Shown here piece after piece: positions 16,479 to 24,053 of a DNA stretch of 33,947 nt (position 1 is its first letter; every line of letters begins with the position of its first letter). The notes under the pieces are model-generated. The model did not search any database and was not told where the DNA came from. It saw nothing but the letters and a program-made list of their open reading frames with translations. The translations under genes and the position numbers were made by a program. Source of the stretch: Candidatus Woesearchaeota archaeon (GTDB taxonomy: Archaea; Nanobdellota; Nanobdellia; Woesearchaeales; GW2011-AR4); assembly GCA_016185865.1 (NCBI GenBank), contig JACPMU010000044.1, forward strand, positions 1-33,947, read 5' to 3'.

Positions 16479-16956
16479 AAAAATAATCACATTGCAAAAA
16501 CTCATTCCAATAGTCCAAAAACTGAAAAAACAAAATAAAAAAATAGTCACAACTAACGGAGTTTTCGACATTCTTCATTTTGGGCATGTAAGATACCTTG
16601 AAAAGGCGAAAAAGCTTGGCGATGTCCTAATTGTGGGTGTTAACACAGACTCTTCTGTAAAGCAGAACAAAGGCGACAAAAGGCCCATCAATGATGAAAA
16701 GTCAAGAATTGCGGTACTGGCAGGCCTGGAAAGCGTTGATTATGCTTTTCTTTTTGGTGAAAAGGATCCAAGGAGCTGGATTTCAAGTATAAAGCCAGAT
16801 GTTCATGTAAAAGCTGGTGATTATAAATTAGGGCAGATTATTGAGAAAAATGTTGTTGAAAAAAATAACGGAAAAATTATTATTGTTAAAGCAGAAAAGG
16901 GATACTCCACAACAGGGCTTATAAACAGTATTCTAGATGCTTATAGAAATCAATAG
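16468..16956 (+). CDS. hldC: D-beta-D-heptose-1-phosphate adenylyltransferase (HldE domain II type, cytidylyltransferase fold).
   Basis: VTTNGVFDILHFGHVRYLEKAKKLGDVLIVGVNTDSSV. 162 aa. Overlaps the gmhB end. Confidence 0.8.
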   Translation: MINKKIITLQKLIPIVQKLKKQNKKIVTTNGVFDILHFGHVRYLEKAKKLGDVLIVGVNTDSSVKQNKGDKRPINDEKSRIAVLAGLESVDYAFLFGEKDPRSWISSIKPDVHVKAGDYKLGQIIEKNVVEKNNGKIIIVKAEKGYSTTGLINSILDAYRNQ

Positions 16957-16987
16957 TTTTTTAAATATTTTACAGTTTTTCTCCACT

Positions 16988-17686
16988 ATGGCAAAACTTT
17001 CGGTTATAATACCTGTTTACAATGAAGAAAAAACTATAAAAAAAGTTATAGACAGGGTAAAAGGTGTGCAATTAAAGAACATAGCAAAGGAGCTTGTCAT
17101 AGTTGATGATTTCTCAACAGACAACACAAGAAACATTTTAAAAAATTTGAAAAATAAATCATTAAAAATATTCTATCATAAAAAAAATATGGGGAAAGGC
17201 GCAGCTATAAGGACAGGCATGAAAAACTCCACTGGAGATTTGATAATAATCCAGGATAGTGATTTAGAATATGATCCTAGTGAATATCCAAAATTATTAA
17301 AGCCTATTGTGGAAAAAAGGGCAAAAGTTGTATATGGCTCAAGATTGGAATCCATAAGAAAAAATGCAAAAAATATGTACAAGCTGCACTATATGGGCAA
17401 TTTGTTCCTTACATTGATGACGAATCTATTGTACGGGGCAAGTATAACTGACATGGAAACTGGCTACAAGGTATTCAGAAAAGAGGTAATTGAAGGCATG
17501 AATTTAAAATCGAATAGATTTGATTTTGAGCCCGAAATCACAGCAAAAATACTCAAGAAAGGCTTTAAAATCCACGAAATTCCTATAGATTTTACCGGGA
17601 GAAAGTTTGAGGAAGGCAAAAAAATTACTTGGATTGACGGCATTAAGGCTTTATACTACCTCATCAAATACAGGGTAGTAGATTAA
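16988..17686 (+). CDS. GT2-family glycosyltransferase.
   Basis: LSVIIPVYNEEKTI...VIVDDFSTDNT...GKGAAIRTG...IIQDSDLEYDP. The track start 16937 adds 17 non-homologous residues, so ATG 16988 is preferred. Confidence 0.85.
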   Translation: MAKLSVIIPVYNEEKTIKKVIDRVKGVQLKNIAKELVIVDDFSTDNTRNILKNLKNKSLKIFYHKKNMGKGAAIRTGMKNSTGDLIIIQDSDLEYDPSEYPKLLKPIVEKRAKVVYGSRLESIRKNAKNMYKLHYMGNLFLTLMTNLLYGASITDMETGYKVFRKEVIEGMNLKSNRFDFEPEITAKILKKGFKIHEIPIDFTGRKFEEGKKITWIDGIKALYYLIKYRVVD

Positions 17687-17687
17687 A

Positions 17688-18419
17688 ATGAGTAAACCAA
17701 ATATTACTATGTTTTTTCCTGCTTATAACGAGGAGAAAAATATCCTAAAACTGCTTAAATCCGCTATAAAAATTCTTAATGATGTTGCTGATAATTATGA
17801 GGTTTTAGTTATAGTTTATGAAGGTTCAACTGATAAAACAATAGACATTGTTAAAAAATTTGCAAATAAAAATAATAAAGTAAAGCTTATAATGCAGCCA
17901 AAAGATAAAAAGGGAATTGGTTATGCAAAAATGATGGGATTTAAAAATGCAAAATATCCTTATATTTTTTATGCAGACTCTGACAATCAGTTTAATTTAA
18001 GGGAATTCAAGAAGTTTTTGCCCTATATAAGCAAATATGACATTATTGCTGGTTATAGGATTAATAGATACGATCCAAAAATCAGAATTATGATCTCAAA
18101 AATCTATAATTGGGCAATGAGCCTCTTGTTTAAGACAAAGGAGCGCGACCTGGACTGTGCCTTCAGGCTGGTAAATAAAAAAGTTATAAATAATATCAAA
18201 CTAGTATGCCATACAGGAGTTGCAACTACAGAGCTCTTGGTCAGAGCAAGGAAAAAGGGATTTAGTATAAAAGAGATTGGCATCAGCCACTACCCAAGAG
18301 AATTTGGAAGATCCTTATTTGAAAGCAATTTGTTAAACTTGCCTAAGCCAAAGGTGGTTATCAGTATATTAAAAGAGATAATCTTGCTTTACAAAGATAT
18401 AAACTCAAAGAATAAATAA
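17688..18419 (+). CDS. GT2-family glycosyltransferase.
   Basis: ITMFFPAYNEEKNI ... EGSTDKT ... FYADSDNQF. Starts 2 nt after the preceding stop. Confidence 0.8.
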   Translation: MSKPNITMFFPAYNEEKNILKLLKSAIKILNDVADNYEVLVIVYEGSTDKTIDIVKKFANKNNKVKLIMQPKDKKGIGYAKMMGFKNAKYPYIFYADSDNQFNLREFKKFLPYISKYDIIAGYRINRYDPKIRIMISKIYNWAMSLLFKTKERDLDCAFRLVNKKVINNIKLVCHTGVATTELLVRARKKGFSIKEIGISHYPREFGRSLFESNLLNLPKPKVVISILKEIILLYKDINSKNK

Positions 18420-18431
18420 TTTTTAAATATT

Positions 18432-19160
18432 ATGGAACTTTCAGTAATCATACCAACTTACAATGAGAAGAAGAATGTTGGAATACTAATTCCAAGAATA
18501 GAGCAATTGTTCTATAAAAGGTACAGGAACGATTTTGAGATTATAGTTGTGGATGACAAGTCTCCGGATGGAACAGCAGAATCAATTATAAAACTGAACA
18601 ATGCATATGGCAACATAAGGTTGATAACCAAAAAGAAAAAAGAGGGCATAGGGAGCGCTCTTAAGGAAGGCTACAGCAATGCAAGAGGCAGCTTGATTTT
18701 GTCAACAGATGCTGATTTATCATTTGATGTCAGGGATATGCTTAGGCTGCTCACAGCAATAAAAAAAGGCCGTGACTTGGTTGTTGGGAGCAGGCACAGG
18801 GCAGGAGGTTTTTACGAGAAGCCAAATATAAAAACCAAAATCAAGGGATTTATAAGCAAATACGGGAATATGATGACAAGAATTTTAACAAATATAGACA
18901 TAAATGATTTTTCTGCGAATTTCAGGATTATAAGGAGAAACGTATGGAAAAAATTGAAAGTTGCAGACAATGCCAATTCCATTCTGTTGGAAATGATACT
19001 TAAGGCAAAATACAAAGGCTATAAAGTTGCAGAAGTGCCTGTAATGTTCATTGACAGGAAATACGGAAAATCGAAGCTGAGTTTGATCAAGGAAATGCCA
19101 AAATTCCTCATGAGGCTGGTTTATTACATCATCAAGTATCGAATTCTAAAATTGGGGTAA
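18432..19160 (+). CDS. GT2-family glycosyltransferase, dolichyl/polyprenyl-phosphate mannose synthase-like.
   Basis: LSVIIPTYNEKKNV...IIVVDDKSPDGTAE...EGIGSALKEGY...STDADLSFD, with a C-terminal hydrophobic tail. Dpm1-like layout. Confidence 0.8.
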   Translation: MELSVIIPTYNEKKNVGILIPRIEQLFYKRYRNDFEIIVVDDKSPDGTAESIIKLNNAYGNIRLITKKKKEGIGSALKEGYSNARGSLILSTDADLSFDVRDMLRLLTAIKKGRDLVVGSRHRAGGFYEKPNIKTKIKGFISKYGNMMTRILTNIDINDFSANFRIIRRNVWKKLKVADNANSILLEMILKAKYKGYKVAEVPVMFIDRKYGKSKLSLIKEMPKFLMRLVYYIIKYRILKLG

Positions 19161-19179: not shown

Positions 19180-20085
19180 TCAAGAATGCGGAATATTATG
19201 CTTAATCCATGTTCTCAAATCGTATTTAGGTTTCCAGCCAAATTTTTTTAATTTTTGTATATTGGCCAGTTCATCCCATCTTTCAATTTTTCTGTCTCTG
19301 ACAAGGCTCCTGTTTTTTACAATTGTGAATTTTTTGTGCAGGTTTTCCGCTATCATTCCAATAATTTCTTTTATGCTGGTAGAGGCTCCAGTTCCTATGT
19401 TAAATATGTTATTTTTTTTAAAGCTCATTGCCATGGTAATTGCACCGGTAAAATCCTTTACATTTAGGAAATCTCTTTTTACATTGTTGCCTATATTAAC
19501 GACATCGCTCTTCATTGCCCTGCTCAAAAGCAGAGGCAACAAACCTTTATTTTGGTGCTTTCCATAAAGATAGGATGCTCTGAAAATTACATAGTTTATT
19601 TCGCAATTGCTTGAATAAGCCCTTATTGTATCCTCGCACATCAGTTTGCTCAGGGAATAAAAATCAACAGGTGATTTATTTTTAACATCAGTTTCTTTGA
19701 TATTGATATTGTTGCCGTAAACAGCTTGTGTAGAGGGAAAAACTATCCTCTTGACTTTATTTTTGCGCATGGATTCCAAAACATTTACAGTGCCGTTGTA
19801 ATTAACATCTATAGTTTTTTTGGGGTGCTCCAAAGAAAATGGCACATCAGTTATTGCCGCCAAATGCACGACCACGTCAATTTTTTTTATTAAAATGCCG
19901 CATTTTCTCGGCTCCAGCACATCCAATTGCCTCACTTCAATATCTTTTAAATTATTTTTATTCAGGAACTTTGCAAGTTTTTTAGTGTCGGATGCAGTGG
20001 CAATTATTTTATTTTTAGAAAAATGCATGTCTTCAATAAGATTTTTGCCTACAAGGCCGTTTGCACCTGTTATTAATATTCTCAT
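19180..20085 (-). CDS. NAD(P)-dependent sugar epimerase/reductase (extended SDR); candidate GDP-4-keto-3,6-dideoxymannose epimerase/reductase (ColC-like).
   Basis: MRILITGANGLVGKNL Rossmann motif and YSLSK (YxxxK). 301 aa. 4-nt overlap with the upstream ColD-like gene. Confidence 0.7.
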   Translation of the reverse strand: MRILITGANGLVGKNLIEDMHFSKNKIIATASDTKKLAKFLNKNNLKDIEVRQLDVLEPRKCGILIKKIDVVVHLAAITDVPFSLEHPKKTIDVNYNGTVNVLESMRKNKVKRIVFPSTQAVYGNNINIKETDVKNKSPVDFYSLSKLMCEDTIRAYSSNCEINYVIFRASYLYGKHQNKGLLPLLLSRAMKSDVVNIGNNVKRDFLNVKDFTGAITMAMSFKKNNIFNIGTGASTSIKEIIGMIAENLHKKFTIVKNRSLVRDRKIERWDELANIQKLKKFGWKPKYDLRTWIKHNIPHS

Positions 20086-21260
20086 TTAAAAAAATCATTG
20101 AATGTTTTGATTATGTAGTCAAGATCGCCATGGCTGATATCCTGATGGCATCCTATATAAAAGCCATTGTTGTTTATCCAGTCGGCAACAGGGTAATCAC
20201 TGACTTTTATTCTGAAAAGTTTTTGATATACTGGCTGGTTTATCAATGGCAGCATTTCCCTTGTTTCAATGCTCTTGCTCTCAAGATAGTTTACTATCCT
20301 CTGTTTCTTTTCTTTCCTTAACACTATTGGAAACATCATAAATGAGTGTTCGCAGCCTTTTCTGACTTCAGGAAGCTGAATCCTGCCGTCAAATTTTCCC
20401 AGGCCGTCTATGAGGCACTTTGCATTATCTCTTCTTTTCTTTATCATAGTTTGCCATGTTTCAAGCTGCGCCATCCCTAGCGCTGCCTCCATTTCTGTTG
20501 CTCTGAAGCTGTGTCCAAGATGGATGAAATTGAATCTTCTGGCAATTACTTCTCTCAGCTCTTTTTTGCTTTTTCCCTTGGAATCGTCAATGCTTATGTA
20601 TATAGAGTCTCTTCCGTGGTTCATTAATGAGCGTAGCATCACCGCATAGTCAGCGTTGTTTGTTGTATTGATGCCGCCAACTCCAGTAGTAATAAGATGC
20701 GCAATATAAGTTGAGAAGCAGCCTATGTCCCCAAGGCTTCCAACCATTTTGCTTTTGTATCTGGCAAACATAGTTTCGCATGAATCTTCAACAATCCTCA
20801 AATCATATTTTGCAGCTATTTTTTTGATTTTGTCCATCTCGCATGGAAGCCCAAACAAATGGACCGGGATAATTGCCTTTGTCCTGTCCGTAATTTTATC
20901 CTCAATTAATTCCGGGTCAATCCCATAGAAGTTCTTTTCAACATCCACAAACACCGGCTTCAGGCTGTTGTGCACAACAACATTCGACGTGGCTACAAAT
21001 GTCACAGCAGGAACTATGACCTCGTCATTATTGTTCCAGTTGTGGATTTCTTTCAGAGCTGCAACAGCTATGTGAAGGGCGCTTGTTCCGCTGTTGCTCA
21101 TTATACCGAATCTGCATTGGTGCAAAGAAGAGAATTTTTTTTCAAATTTTTTAGTGAACTGGCCATAAGACAATCTTTTTCTGTCTAAAGTCTTATTAAC
21201 ATAGAGCTTTGCATTTTTGCTTATGCTGAGTGTGCCTACTCCGATAAATTTCTTGGCCAT
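20082..21260 (-). CDS. colD: DegT/DnrJ/EryC1-fold PLP/PMP enzyme with His in place of the Schiff-base Lys: GDP-4-keto-6-deoxy-D-mannose 3-dehydratase (ColD)-like.
   Basis: SNSGTSALHIAV, VEDSCETMFA, then GDIGCFSTYIAHLITTGVGG, where normal aminotransferases have FSF..xK.ltxGEGG. The His codon is at 20697..20699. C-terminal GFYIGCHQ. Immediately downstream of gmd. The track start 21305 is TTG; the first ATG is 21260. Confidence 0.65.
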   Translation of the reverse strand: MAKKFIGVGTLSISKNAKLYVNKTLDRKRLSYGQFTKKFEKKFSSLHQCRFGIMSNSGTSALHIAVAALKEIHNWNNNDEVIVPAVTFVATSNVVVHNSLKPVFVDVEKNFYGIDPELIEDKITDRTKAIIPVHLFGLPCEMDKIKKIAAKYDLRIVEDSCETMFARYKSKMVGSLGDIGCFSTYIAHLITTGVGGINTTNNADYAVMLRSLMNHGRDSIYISIDDSKGKSKKELREVIARRFNFIHLGHSFRATEMEAALGMAQLETWQTMIKKRRDNAKCLIDGLGKFDGRIQLPEVRKGCEHSFMMFPIVLRKEKKQRIVNYLESKSIETREMLPLINQPVYQKLFRIKVSDYPVADWINNNGFYIGCHQDISHGDLDYIIKTFNDFFK

Positions 21261-21345
21261 CAAGAATGGGCTGGTAAATATTAAATTTATAAAGCTTTCG
21301 AGCAATAGTAGACATCTAAAGCCAGCATATTTTGTGAGGTATGCC

Positions 21346-22401
21346 CTATCTTTTTATGCCATAAATTTTTGAGAATCTTTTAATGTCGTGATCAACCATA
21401 AGTTTAACAAGTTCCCCGAAAGATGTTTTTGGAGCCCATTTCAGCTTTTTTTTTGCATATGACGGATCGCCTGAAAGCTTTTCAACTTCTGCCGGCCTGA
21501 AATATCTGAGGCTGACCTTTACAAGCGCTTTTCCTGTTTTTTTATCTATGCCCTTTTCATTCACTCCCCTGCCCTTCCACAAAATTTTTATACCAATACA
21601 GTCAAAAGCTTTCTCGGCAAATTCCCTGACGCTATGGCTTTCCCCGGTGGCTATCACAAAGTCTTCTGGATATTTCATCTGCAGCATGAGCCACATTGCC
21701 TCAACATATTCTTTTGCATACCCCCAGTCTCTCTTCGCATTCAGGTTGCCTAATTCAAGAACATCGTCTATTCCTAATTTTATTTTTGCAACTTGCTGGC
21801 TTATCTTTTTTGAGACAAAATTTTCGCCTCTTCTTTCAGACTCGTGGTTGAATAGTATGCCATTGCATGCAAACATGTTGTACGCTTCTCTGAAGTTTAT
21901 AGTTATCCAGTGGGAATAAAGCTTGGCTATGCCGTAAGGGCTTCTTGGATGAAATGGCGTCTTTTCTGTCTGAGGCGTTTCCTGCGCCAATCCAAACAGT
22001 TCGCTTGTTGATGCATTGTAGAACTTTACTTTATGAGCCATTCCTAAAATTTTTATTGCTTCAAGAATCCTTAACGTGCCTAATGCATCGGCATTCGCGG
22101 TATATTCCGGCATTTCAAATGATATCTGAACATGGCTTTGCGCAGCCAGGTGGTAAATCTCATCAGGCTGCGCTAATTTTAAAATTCTTAAGATGGAGCT
22201 GGAGTCGGTCATGTCGCCGTAATGCAGGCTCATATCACCGTTCCTTCTGTGAAAATCGTAAATAGAGCCAATCCTTTCCCTGTTAAAAGAGCTTGACCTT
22301 CTGCAGACGCCATGCACTATATAACCTTTCTTCAGAAGGAATTCTGCAAGGTACGAGCCATCTTGGCCTGTTATGCCTGTTATTAAAGCAATTTTTTTCA
22401 T
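21346..22401 (-). CDS. gmd: GDP-mannose 4,6-dehydratase.
   Basis: [46 protein letters not shown] and NHESERRG motifs. The track start 22422 is TTG. ATG 22401 fits the TATA spacing. Confidence 0.9.
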
Positions 22402-22466: not shown

Positions 22467-24053
22467 TTATTTTTTCCTGGTGAAAATATACCCATTTTCT
22501 GTTTTGTCCCAAGTTCCCTGAACATCATAAACAAGCCATGAATAGCCAATGTTGCCAACAGGCTCAAAATTCTGCTTTAGCCACTGGTAGCATACCCATT
22601 TTTGGAATTGAAGGCTGTTTGCGGGAACCAAAATTTTTCCTAAAGCTGGCTGGCATCCTGGGTCAACAGCAACAGGCTCGTTCACTTTGCTGATATAGTA
22701 TTTCACCAAATCCAAATCCTGCTCCCAATCCAAATTGGAATCAATGGTGTATTTATACCCATTTTTGGGTCCGCCGATGAATTCATTGAAATAAGCCAGG
22801 TGGTGAGGGATTACCAGCAATGACCCTGCCAAATACCATACCGCCAATAAGGAAATTATGCCTATAAAAATCTTATTTTTTAAAGGGTAAATTGAAAGGA
22901 CATGCCTATAGCCAACTGCTGTTTTGCTGAAAAAAGACAGCATGAACAGGATTATGAGCATATAAATCAGCAAATAACTCTCTGAAATGCTAATTCTTCT
23001 AAAATACAAGAATCCTAAAATGAGAAAAATAAATATAGGAATAGGTGTCTTAATTAGGATGTGGAAAATATAATAAGAGCTTGGTTTTTCCCCTATTTTT
23101 CCAAGGAAAAAAAAGCCCCTGACTTCGTCCTTTGCCTGCCATTGCGCCTGGTCGTGGCCCAAAACATACTGCTTGGGCAATAGTATAGGTACCCAGTTTA
23201 CAAGTTTGTTTTTGTATAAAGCATTAAAAGAGGAGCTCATAAATTCTTCTTTGTCGTATTTGCTTAATGGGGCAAAAGTGCCGTTGAAAAAATACATTAA
23301 ATTTATGACAAGCCATCCAATTAAAAATATTATCAGCAAAGAAAAAACAATGTCAAATGACTTCTTTAGGCTGGGTTTTTTGATTTTAAAGAAAAAATCA
23401 GCTTTAAAGTCCTTAAAAAAATAAACAAGGATGGAATACAATACAAATGTTGGTATAAGAAAAACAGAGAGCAGCTTGGTGATCTGTGCCAAGCCAAAAC
23501 ATAAACCGGCTATTAACAGGCCCTTTTTTGTTGGTTTGTTGACATACTTCCAAAAAGTGTACATTGAAAGAAAGATAAAGAGTGCGCCTCCGATGTCAGC
23601 TGTTACCAGGCTTCCAAAAGCCAGAATGTTGGGCGAAAATGCTGCCAGAAACAGGGCAAAAAGGCCTGCTCTTATCCCGTACAGGTCTCTTGCCCAAAGA
23701 AAAACAAGATAGGCCAATATAGCCATAAAAATTAATGGCACAAGCCTTGAAGCGAGCAAAATTCCTCTTGGAAACGGAGTTATTTTCCCCGTGATATAAT
23801 CCAATTGGGTGCCCCTGTCAAAATTATTGAATTTGCTTTTATCCGTGACAAAAAGCAAAGGCAGCGCTGCCAAAGTAGAAGTCAAAGGCGGATTAATTAT
23901 GCCTATCTCCCACTTGCTTGTTGTAAGGTATTTGTAGCCCGCATTTAAATGAAAATTTATTTCGTCAATTGTTCTTGACTTGACGCTTGCAATGAAAAAG
24001 CCTTGAGTGAACATCAAAAAAAGCAGTATCGCAACAATATATCTTGATTTCAT
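22467..24053 (-). CDS. GT-C-fold polytopic membrane glycosyltransferase (ArnT/PMT-like, GT39/GT83-type).
   Basis: 528 aa with more than 10 hydrophobic helices. N-terminal loop IDEINFHLNAGY with acidic residues. ArnT-like topology and a C-terminal soluble tail. Confidence 0.65.
   Translation of the reverse strand: MKSRYIVAILLFLMFTQGFFIASVKSRTIDEINFHLNAGYKYLTTSKWEIGIINPPLTSTLAALPLLFVTDKSKFNNFDRGTQLDYITGKITPFPRGILLASRLVPLIFMAILAYLVFLWARDLYGIRAGLFALFLAAFSPNILAFGSLVTADIGGALFIFLSMYTFWKYVNKPTKKGLLIAGLCFGLAQITKLLSVFLIPTFVLYSILVYFFKDFKADFFFKIKKPSLKKSFDIVFSLLIIFLIGWLVINLMYFFNGTFAPLSKYDKEEFMSSSFNALYKNKLVNWVPILLPKQYVLGHDQAQWQAKDEVRGFFFLGKIGEKPSSYYIFHILIKTPIPIFIFLILGFLYFRRISISESYLLIYMLIILFMLSFFSKTAVGYRHVLSIYPLKNKIFIGIISLLAVWYLAGSLLVIPHHLAYFNEFIGGPKNGYKYTIDSNLDWEQDLDLVKYYISKVNEPVAVDPGCQPALGKILVPANSLQFQKWVCYQWLKQNFEPVGNIGYSWLVYDVQGTWDKTENGYIFTRKK

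What the first reader, a model, noticed from the sequence alone, without database searches (positions are those of the whole stretch)
19180..22401. gmd / ColD-like / SDR operon predicts a GDP-3,6-dideoxyhexose (colitose-type) sugar in an archaeon
Downstream of a textbook GDP-mannose 4,6-dehydratase lies a DegT-fold protein in which the PLP Schiff-base lysine of the FSF..xK..TxGEGG motif is a histidine (CFSTYIAHLITTGVGG; His codon 20697..20699). Lys-to-His replacement is the established hallmark of the sugar 3-dehydratases ColD (GDP-4-keto-6-deoxymannose 3-dehydratase) and E1 (DdhC), not of aminotransferases. EDSCET and the C-terminal G.HQ also match my recollection of ColD (EDNCES, GNHQ). A 301-aa SDR overlapping by 4 nt could act as the ColC-type epimerase/reductase. 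3,6-Dideoxyhexoses are best known from Gram-negative O-antigens, so a colitose-like pathway feeding an archaeal surface glycan would be unusual.
Basis: partly seen in the sequence, partly recalled or inferred. Interest (0 to 1): 0.65.

Follow-up and report, generated by a model that had tools for sequence, protein, structure and literature searches.

The report
Archaeal GDP-3,6-dideoxyhexose pathway, non-ColD dehydratase
A DPANN (Woesearchaeota) archaeon carries a three-gene set that most likely turns GDP-mannose into a GDP-3,6-dideoxy sugar, using a histidine-type "aminotransferase-fold" dehydratase from a large, uncharacterised branch outside the known ColD/E1 enzymes, so the product is probably not colitose itself.

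Summary
On the minus strand lie gmd (21346-22401), a DegT-fold gene (20082-21260) and a 301-aa SDR (19180-20085, 4-nt overlap). The DegT protein has His (codon 20697-20699) exactly where aminotransferases have the Schiff-base Lys. This His is invariant in 120/120 close homologues.

The protein lacks the E1 [2Fe-2S] cysteines, so a ColD-like, glutamate-recycled PMP 3-dehydratase is the best reading. It is not a ColD or E1 orthologue: identity is 30-33%, and the ColD+E1 clade excludes it with 95% NJ bootstrap. It belongs to a large uncharacterised "GVGG" branch found in 398 species genomes, nearly all labelled as metagenome-assembled.

Context supports GDP-sugar 3-deoxygenation. Relatives sit next to Gmd and/or a GDP-fucose-synthase-like (ColC-like) gene in 49/76 loci. 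The window's SDR family also follows Gmd plus a ColD/E1-clade dehydratase in another locus.

That SDR is not ColC-type. It lacks the epimerase Cys and His, so a D-series 3,6-dideoxyhexose is likelier than L-colitose.

DPMS/ArnC-like GT2 genes and a PMT_2 GT-C flank the trio, suggesting delivery through a dolichyl-phosphate carrier. The host is a Woesearchaeote. Nothing here is biochemically tested.

The parts
21346..22401 (-). gmd, GDP-mannose 4,6-dehydratase (351 aa from the ATG)
   Evidence: TIGR01472 559 bits against a cutoff of 415; PF16363 484 bits. 85% identical to the syntenic Gmd in L088.
20082..21260 (-). His-type DegT-fold enzyme (392 aa, P0001); predicted PMP-dependent GDP-4-keto-6-deoxy-D-mannose 3-dehydratase of the 'GVGG' branch
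   Evidence: PF01041 304 bits. His188 lies at the Lys column. No E1 Cys cluster. AF2 pLDDT 86.8; Foldseek TM-scores normalised to the query (TMq) of 0.83-0.88 for the top-ranked DegT-family structures and 0.84 for ColD 2gms.
20697..20699 (-). CAT codon for catalytic-site His188
   Evidence: The column is invariant His in 120/120 homologues.
19180..20085 (-). Extended SDR (301 aa), predicted NAD(P)H-dependent C4-ketoreductase without epimerase residues
   Evidence: 4-nt overlap with the DegT gene. Its small family (about 13 proteins above 39% identity) lay directly downstream of a His-type DegT in all three homologues whose contigs were examined. YxxxK is kept; the GFS/ColC Cys is Ala and the His is Gly.
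22467..24053 (-). PMT_2-type GT-C membrane glycosyltransferase directly upstream of gmd on the same strand (possible operon partner)
   Evidence: PF13231 52.5 bits. The same order PMT_2-Gmd-DegT-SDR occurs in L088/L089.
18432..19160 (+). GT2c, DPMS/ArnC/GtrB-like polyprenyl-phosphate glycosyltransferase, convergent with the SDR
   Evidence: Best PDB hits are Dol-P-Man synthase 5mlz (105.6 bits), ArnC and GtrB. GT2s of 45-66% identity flank the DegT gene in L003, L011, L033 and L068.
16937..17686 (+). GT2a, second DPMS/ArnC-like GT2
   Evidence: 5mlz 81.7 bits, ArnC 65 bits. A 46%-identical GT2 lies near DegT/Gmd in L075.
17688..18419 (+). GT2b, third GT2 of the run (role unassigned)
   Evidence: PF00535 79 bits.

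Best explanation
The three co-directional genes encode a GDP-mannose to GDP-3,6-dideoxyhexose pathway in a Woesearchaeote. Step 1: Gmd makes GDP-4-keto-6-deoxy-D-mannose (assigned from an equivalog-level model match). Step 2: the His188 DegT-fold enzyme binds PMP non-covalently, forms a Schiff base with the C4 ketone, and uses His188 as acid/base to expel the C3 hydroxyl. Hydrolysis then releases GDP-4-keto-3,6-dideoxy-D-mannose and ammonia. PMP is regenerated from PLP with L-glutamate, as in ColD, because no iron-sulfur site or reductase partner is present. This step is inferred from the His, the missing Cys motif and gene context. Step 3: the translationally coupled SDR reduces C4. It lacks the Cys and His that GDP-fucose synthase and ColC use for C3/C5 epimerisation, so the product is more likely a D-series sugar than L-colitose: 3,6-dideoxy-D-arabino-hexose (tyvelose configuration) or its D-lyxo C4 epimer (inferred). 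The flanking DPMS/ArnC-like GT2 enzymes and the PMT_2 GT-C probably load the sugar on dolichyl phosphate and transfer it to a surface glycan, in an Arn/Gtr-like arrangement (speculative). The dehydratase belongs to a large uncharacterised 'GVGG' branch of His-type DegT enzymes, distinct from the ColD+E1 clade.
For: The His sits at the exact Lys column in comparisons with E1, the E1 H220K mutant, ColD and the Lys-type 7b0m, and it is invariant in 120/120 homologues. Review PMC8987622 names Lys-to-His as the defining difference of sugar 3-dehydratases, and the four-Cys [2Fe-2S] motif as present in E1 and SpnQ but absent in ColD. The window protein has no Cys in that segment. gmd lies 85 nt upstream. 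In 76 genome loci of relatives, a GDP-fucose-synthase-like gene is present in 41 and adjacent in 31; three representatives retain the ColC/Fcl Cys and His. Gmd is present in 17, and one or the other in 49. The window-type SDR follows a His-type DegT in all three homologue contexts examined. One of these is L093/L094, with the order Gmd, then a ColD/E1-clade dehydratase 39% identical to ColD, then the SDR, then Wzx. The heptose genes nearby are of the ADP-beta type, so GDP-heptose is an unlikely substrate. GT2a and GT2c best match Dol-P-Man synthase and ArnC. 25 of 120 homologues are fused to a GT2 domain whose only PDB hit is Dol-P-Man synthase.
Against: No member of the GVGG branch has been characterised, as far as these searches show. 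Overall similarity is higher to Lys-type aminotransferases (39% to 7b0m; GDP-perosamine synthase 176 bits) than to ColD (30%, 155 bits). Foldseek cannot separate dehydratases from aminotransferases. Monophyly of the His-type enzymes has only 63/200 NJ bootstrap support, so the His may have arisen independently. The branch has Val in place of the Glu of the [GIM]EGG motif that ColD, E1 and most aligned aminotransferases carry (7b0m has Gly there); the consequence is unknown. Gmd is absent within 7 kb in most related loci, including the closest genome locus L003. The SDR's role as a reductase rather than a 4-epimerase or other SDR chemistry rests on residues and context only; its best PDB hits are GalE-like. 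The AF2 model has low confidence at the His loop, residues 188-192.
Confidence: 0.68

Rival explanations
1. The pathway makes genuine GDP-L-colitose. Either the 301-aa SDR performs C5 epimerisation and C4 reduction by a mechanism different from GFS/ColC, or a separate epimerase elsewhere in the genome supplies that step.
For: Most relatives of the dehydratase sit next to a GFS/ColC-like gene: 41/76 loci, 31 of them adjacent. The branch as a whole therefore looks colitose-directed.
Against: The window SDR and the four homologues aligned with it (L088, L090, L093, L003) have Ala or Asp at the Cys109 position and Gly or Asn at the His179 position. The SDR scores 49.7 bits against a cutoff of 500 on the Fcl model and is 23% identical to ColC. 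No cupin or RmlC-type epimerase was found in the window.
Confidence: 0.12
2. The His-type protein is not a dehydratase. It is an aminotransferase, or another PLP/PMP enzyme, that gives a 4-amino-4,6-dideoxy sugar (perosamine-type) or some other product.
For: It is closer overall to Lys-type aminotransferases and GDP-perosamine synthase than to ColD. Sources annotate the family as 'perosamine synthetase' or 'aminotransferase'. SpnQ, a His-type enzyme, shows transamination when no reductase is present (PMC8987622). The GVGG variation is unexplained.
Against: The catalytic Lys needed for an internal aldimine is absent in all 120 homologues and no compensating Lys is nearby. A downstream ketoreductase-type SDR is conserved, and it would have no substrate after transamination. 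The same SDR family pairs with a ColD/E1-clade enzyme in L093. No N-acyltransferase gene typical of amino-sugar pathways is adjacent.
Confidence: 0.08
3. The enzyme acts on another nucleotide sugar, for example GDP-6-deoxy-4-keto-heptose as in Campylobacter jejuni HS:5, or a CDP- or dTDP-sugar. The adjacent Gmd homologue would then be a heptose or other 4,6-dehydratase.
For: A heptose biosynthesis cluster lies 2-6 kb away. [quoted passage not shown] Many related loci lack Gmd within 7 kb.
Against: The heptose genes pass or nearly reach the curated cutoffs for the ADP-D-glycero-beta-D-manno-heptose route: rfaE domain I 380 bits (cutoff 345), domain II 184.5 (181.5), GmhB 179 (178), GmhA 206 (209). 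The HddC model gets only 36-37 bits from the two nucleotidyltransferases, and no Pfam GHMP-kinase (HddA-type) hit appeared among the window ORFs. Gmd passes the gmd equivalog cutoff. The partners in relatives are GDP-fucose-synthase-like.
Confidence: 0.07
4. The mechanism is E1/SpnQ-type: reductive C3 deoxygenation using an iron-sulfur cluster and an external reductase.
For: E1 is the best PDB sequence hit (202.6 bits), RfbH is the best NCBIfam hit (254.9 bits), and the motif is 'AH' as in E1.
Against: The E1 cysteine-rich segment (rdCyCapgCdntC) is replaced by a Cys-free segment. The RfbH score is far below its cutoff of 423. No E3, ferredoxin-reductase or CDP-glucose genes are in the window. 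The conserved Cys140, Cys161 and Cys181 are shared with Fe-S-free ColD or 7b0m.
Confidence: 0.03

Closest known systems
ColD / WbdK, GDP-4-keto-6-deoxy-D-mannose 3-dehydratase (E. coli O55:H7, PDB 2gms; Yersinia pseudotuberculosis; C. jejuni HS:5/HS:11 heptose C3-dehydratases)
   Same: DegT fold. His188 aligns with His188. The EDxCE(S/T) and G(N/C)HQ motifs are shared. There is no Fe-S cysteine motif. The gene follows a Gmd-type dehydratase. In most relatives the neighbour is a GDP-fucose-synthase-like enzyme, as ColC is for ColD.
   Different: Only 30% identity. It lies outside the ColD+E1 clade (190/200 bootstrap). It has GVGG in place of MEGG and Ala187 in place of Ser187. In this window the partner SDR is not ColC-type. 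The host is a DPANN archaeon. No activity data exist.
E1 (DdhC/RfbH/AscC), CDP-6-deoxy-L-threo-D-glycero-4-hexulose 3-dehydrase (PDB 3bcx)
   Same: Best PDB sequence hit (202.6 bits, 33% identity). His faces His220. The 'AH' dipeptide is shared. Highest Foldseek TM-score normalised to the query (TMq 0.88).
   Different: It lacks the four-Cys [2Fe-2S] motif and any E3 partner. The context is GDP, not CDP. It scores below the RfbH cutoff (254.9 against 423).
ColC / GDP-L-fucose synthase (GFS, Fcl) family of epimerase-reductases
   Same: The window SDR is an extended SDR with GxxGxxG and YxxxK, placed immediately after the dehydratase gene with a 4-nt overlap. ColC and ColD in E. coli O55 also overlap by 4 nt.
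   Different: 23% identity. 49.7 bits on NF047922 against a cutoff of 500. The epimerase Cys is Ala and the His is Gly, so the prediction is a reductase only.
Arn (ArnB/ArnC/ArnT) and Gtr (GtrA/B/C) lipid-carrier glycan modification systems
   Same: A nucleotide-sugar tailoring enzyme of the DegT fold lies next to DPMS/ArnC/GtrB-like GT2 genes and a GT-C membrane transferase. DegT-GT2 fusions occur in relatives.
   Different: The sugar chemistry differs (GDP-dideoxyhexose, not UDP-Ara4N or UDP-Glc). No flippase has been identified. The link is by gene neighbourhood only.

Membership tests
Sugar 3-dehydratases of the aminotransferase fold (ColD/E1/SpnQ kind) | DegT/DnrJ/EryC1 (fold-type I) architecture | tested here: met
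   PF01041 304 bits over residues 28-402. AF2 model pLDDT 86.8; Foldseek TM-score normalised to the query (TMq) 0.88 to E1 and 0.84 to ColD.
Sugar 3-dehydratases of the aminotransferase fold (ColD/E1/SpnQ kind) | Catalytic Lys replaced by His at the Schiff-base position (PMC8987622) | tested here: met
   His188 aligns with E1 His220, ColD His188 and the Lys of 7b0m and E1-H220K. 120/120 homologues carry His.
Sugar 3-dehydratases of the aminotransferase fold (ColD/E1/SpnQ kind) | Catalyses C3 deoxygenation of an NDP-4-keto-6-deoxyhexose with PMP | not testable with these tools
   Needs an enzyme assay. Only context supports it.
ColD (GDP-4-keto-6-deoxy-D-mannose 3-dehydratase) orthologous group | Clusters with characterised ColD sequences (C. 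jejuni and Yersinia enzymes are 62-67% identical to E. coli ColD, PMC10440746) | tested here: not met
   30% identity to ColD. The ColD+E1 clade of 15 sequences has 190/200 bootstrap support and excludes the window protein.
ColD (GDP-4-keto-6-deoxy-D-mannose 3-dehydratase) orthologous group | No [2Fe-2S] binding cysteines; PMP regenerated by glutamate | tested here: inconclusive
   Absence of the Cys motif is shown. Glutamate-dependent recycling cannot be tested in silico.
ColD (GDP-4-keto-6-deoxy-D-mannose 3-dehydratase) orthologous group | Pathway context Gmd, then dehydratase, then ColC (GFS-like epimerase/reductase) | tested here: inconclusive
   Gmd is present and adjacent in the window. 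A ColC-type partner is absent in the window but present in 41/76 related loci.
E1 (DdhC/RfbH/AscC) | Four-cysteine [2Fe-2S] motif around the cofactor | tested here: not met
   The E1 segment 'rdCyCapgCdntC' aligns with the Cys-free 'rdsiyisiddskgk'.
E1 (DdhC/RfbH/AscC) | Passes the RfbH equivalog model; E3 reductase and CDP-glucose genes nearby | tested here: not met
   NF011936 254.9 bits against a cutoff of 423. No such genes appear among the window ORFs.
DegT-family sugar aminotransferases (Per, WecE, ArnB, PseC) | Schiff-base Lys in the (S/N)xK motif | tested here: not met
   His is at that column and no Lys lies within 10 residues on either side. All aminotransferase NCBIfam models score below their cutoffs.
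ColC / GDP-L-fucose synthase epimerase-reductases (for the 301-aa SDR) | Catalytic Cys (SSC) and His (SH-IP) for C3/C5 epimerisation, plus S/Y/K | tested here: not met
   YxxxK is present. The Cys is Ala and the His is Gly in the window protein; its four aligned homologues also lack both residues. NF047922 scores 49.7 against a cutoff of 500.
GDP-mannose 4,6-dehydratase (Gmd) | Passes the TIGR01472 equivalog cutoff | tested here: met
   559.3 bits against a cutoff of 415, full length.
Polyprenyl-phosphate glycosyltransferases (DPMS/ArnC/GtrB) for GT2a and GT2c | GT2 catalytic domain most similar to DPMS, ArnC and GtrB | tested here: met
   5mlz 105.6 and 81.7 bits; ArnC 59 and 65 bits. Donor and acceptor specificity were not tested.

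The most novel reading that the evidence does not exclude
The 'GVGG' His-type DegT enzymes are a third major lineage of PMP-dependent sugar 3-dehydratases. They may have arisen independently of ColD/E1, are mis-annotated everywhere as aminotransferases, and are spread across DPANN archaea and many uncultivated bacterial phyla. In Woesearchaeota the lineage is coupled to a non-epimerising reductase, giving a GDP-linked D-series 3,6-dideoxyhexose (GDP-tyvelose-like). No such nucleotide sugar turned up in the papers searched here. The sugar would be delivered to the archaeal surface through Dol-P and a GT-C transferase.
Probability: 0.35. Interest if true: 0.65.

Novelty: new variant of a known kind. 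Interest (0 to 1): 0.5.

Why it matters
3,6-Dideoxyhexoses are classic antigenic determinants of Gram-negative O-antigens, and only two enzyme lineages for C3 deoxygenation of this kind (ColD and E1/SpnQ) have been characterised. If the call is right, three things follow.

- A much larger set of 'aminotransferase' annotations in metagenomes are in fact 3-dehydratases.
- DPANN archaea would decorate their surface with dideoxy sugars. These are episymbionts whose surface glycans probably mediate host contact.
- A GDP-linked D-series 3,6-dideoxyhexose would add a new nucleotide sugar and a new enzyme pair for glycoengineering.

The branch also offers a natural test of how the Lys-to-His switch converts transamination into dehydration, because it is closer in sequence to true aminotransferases than ColD is.

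Tried and rejected
- **Foldseek of an AF2 model against the PDB.** It confirms the DegT fold. It ranks aminotransferases, E1 and ColD almost equally, so it is not discriminating.
- **Bootstrap with Biopython NJ.** It timed out, and was replaced by a numpy NJ. Monophyly of the His-type enzymes stays unresolved (63/200).
- **ColD and E1 structure papers (PMC2242600, PMC2533848, PMC2782820).** None is held. GDP-binding residues could therefore not be checked against the literature; review PMC8987622 was used instead.
- **Reference ColD lookup.** A first guess at the O55 O-antigen coordinates missed. ColD and ColC were found on later tries.
- **GDP-heptose as substrate.** Considered and rejected because the heptose genes are of the ADP-beta type.
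- **The SDR as ADP-heptose 6-epimerase (HldD).** Considered (88.5 bits against a cutoff of 274.6) and rejected, because the SDR travels with His-DegT genes in loci that have no heptose genes.
- **Fe-S ligation by the four conserved Cys (140, 161, 181, 371).** Considered and rejected. Cys140 and Cys181 are shared with aminotransferase 7b0m, and Cys161 with ColD.
- **tblastn against plasmids and phages.** Nothing above 35% identity, so no close relative turned up in those two collections.
- **PDB search with the GT-C protein.** No hits.
- **Literature searches for archaeal dideoxyhexoses.** No experimental report found.

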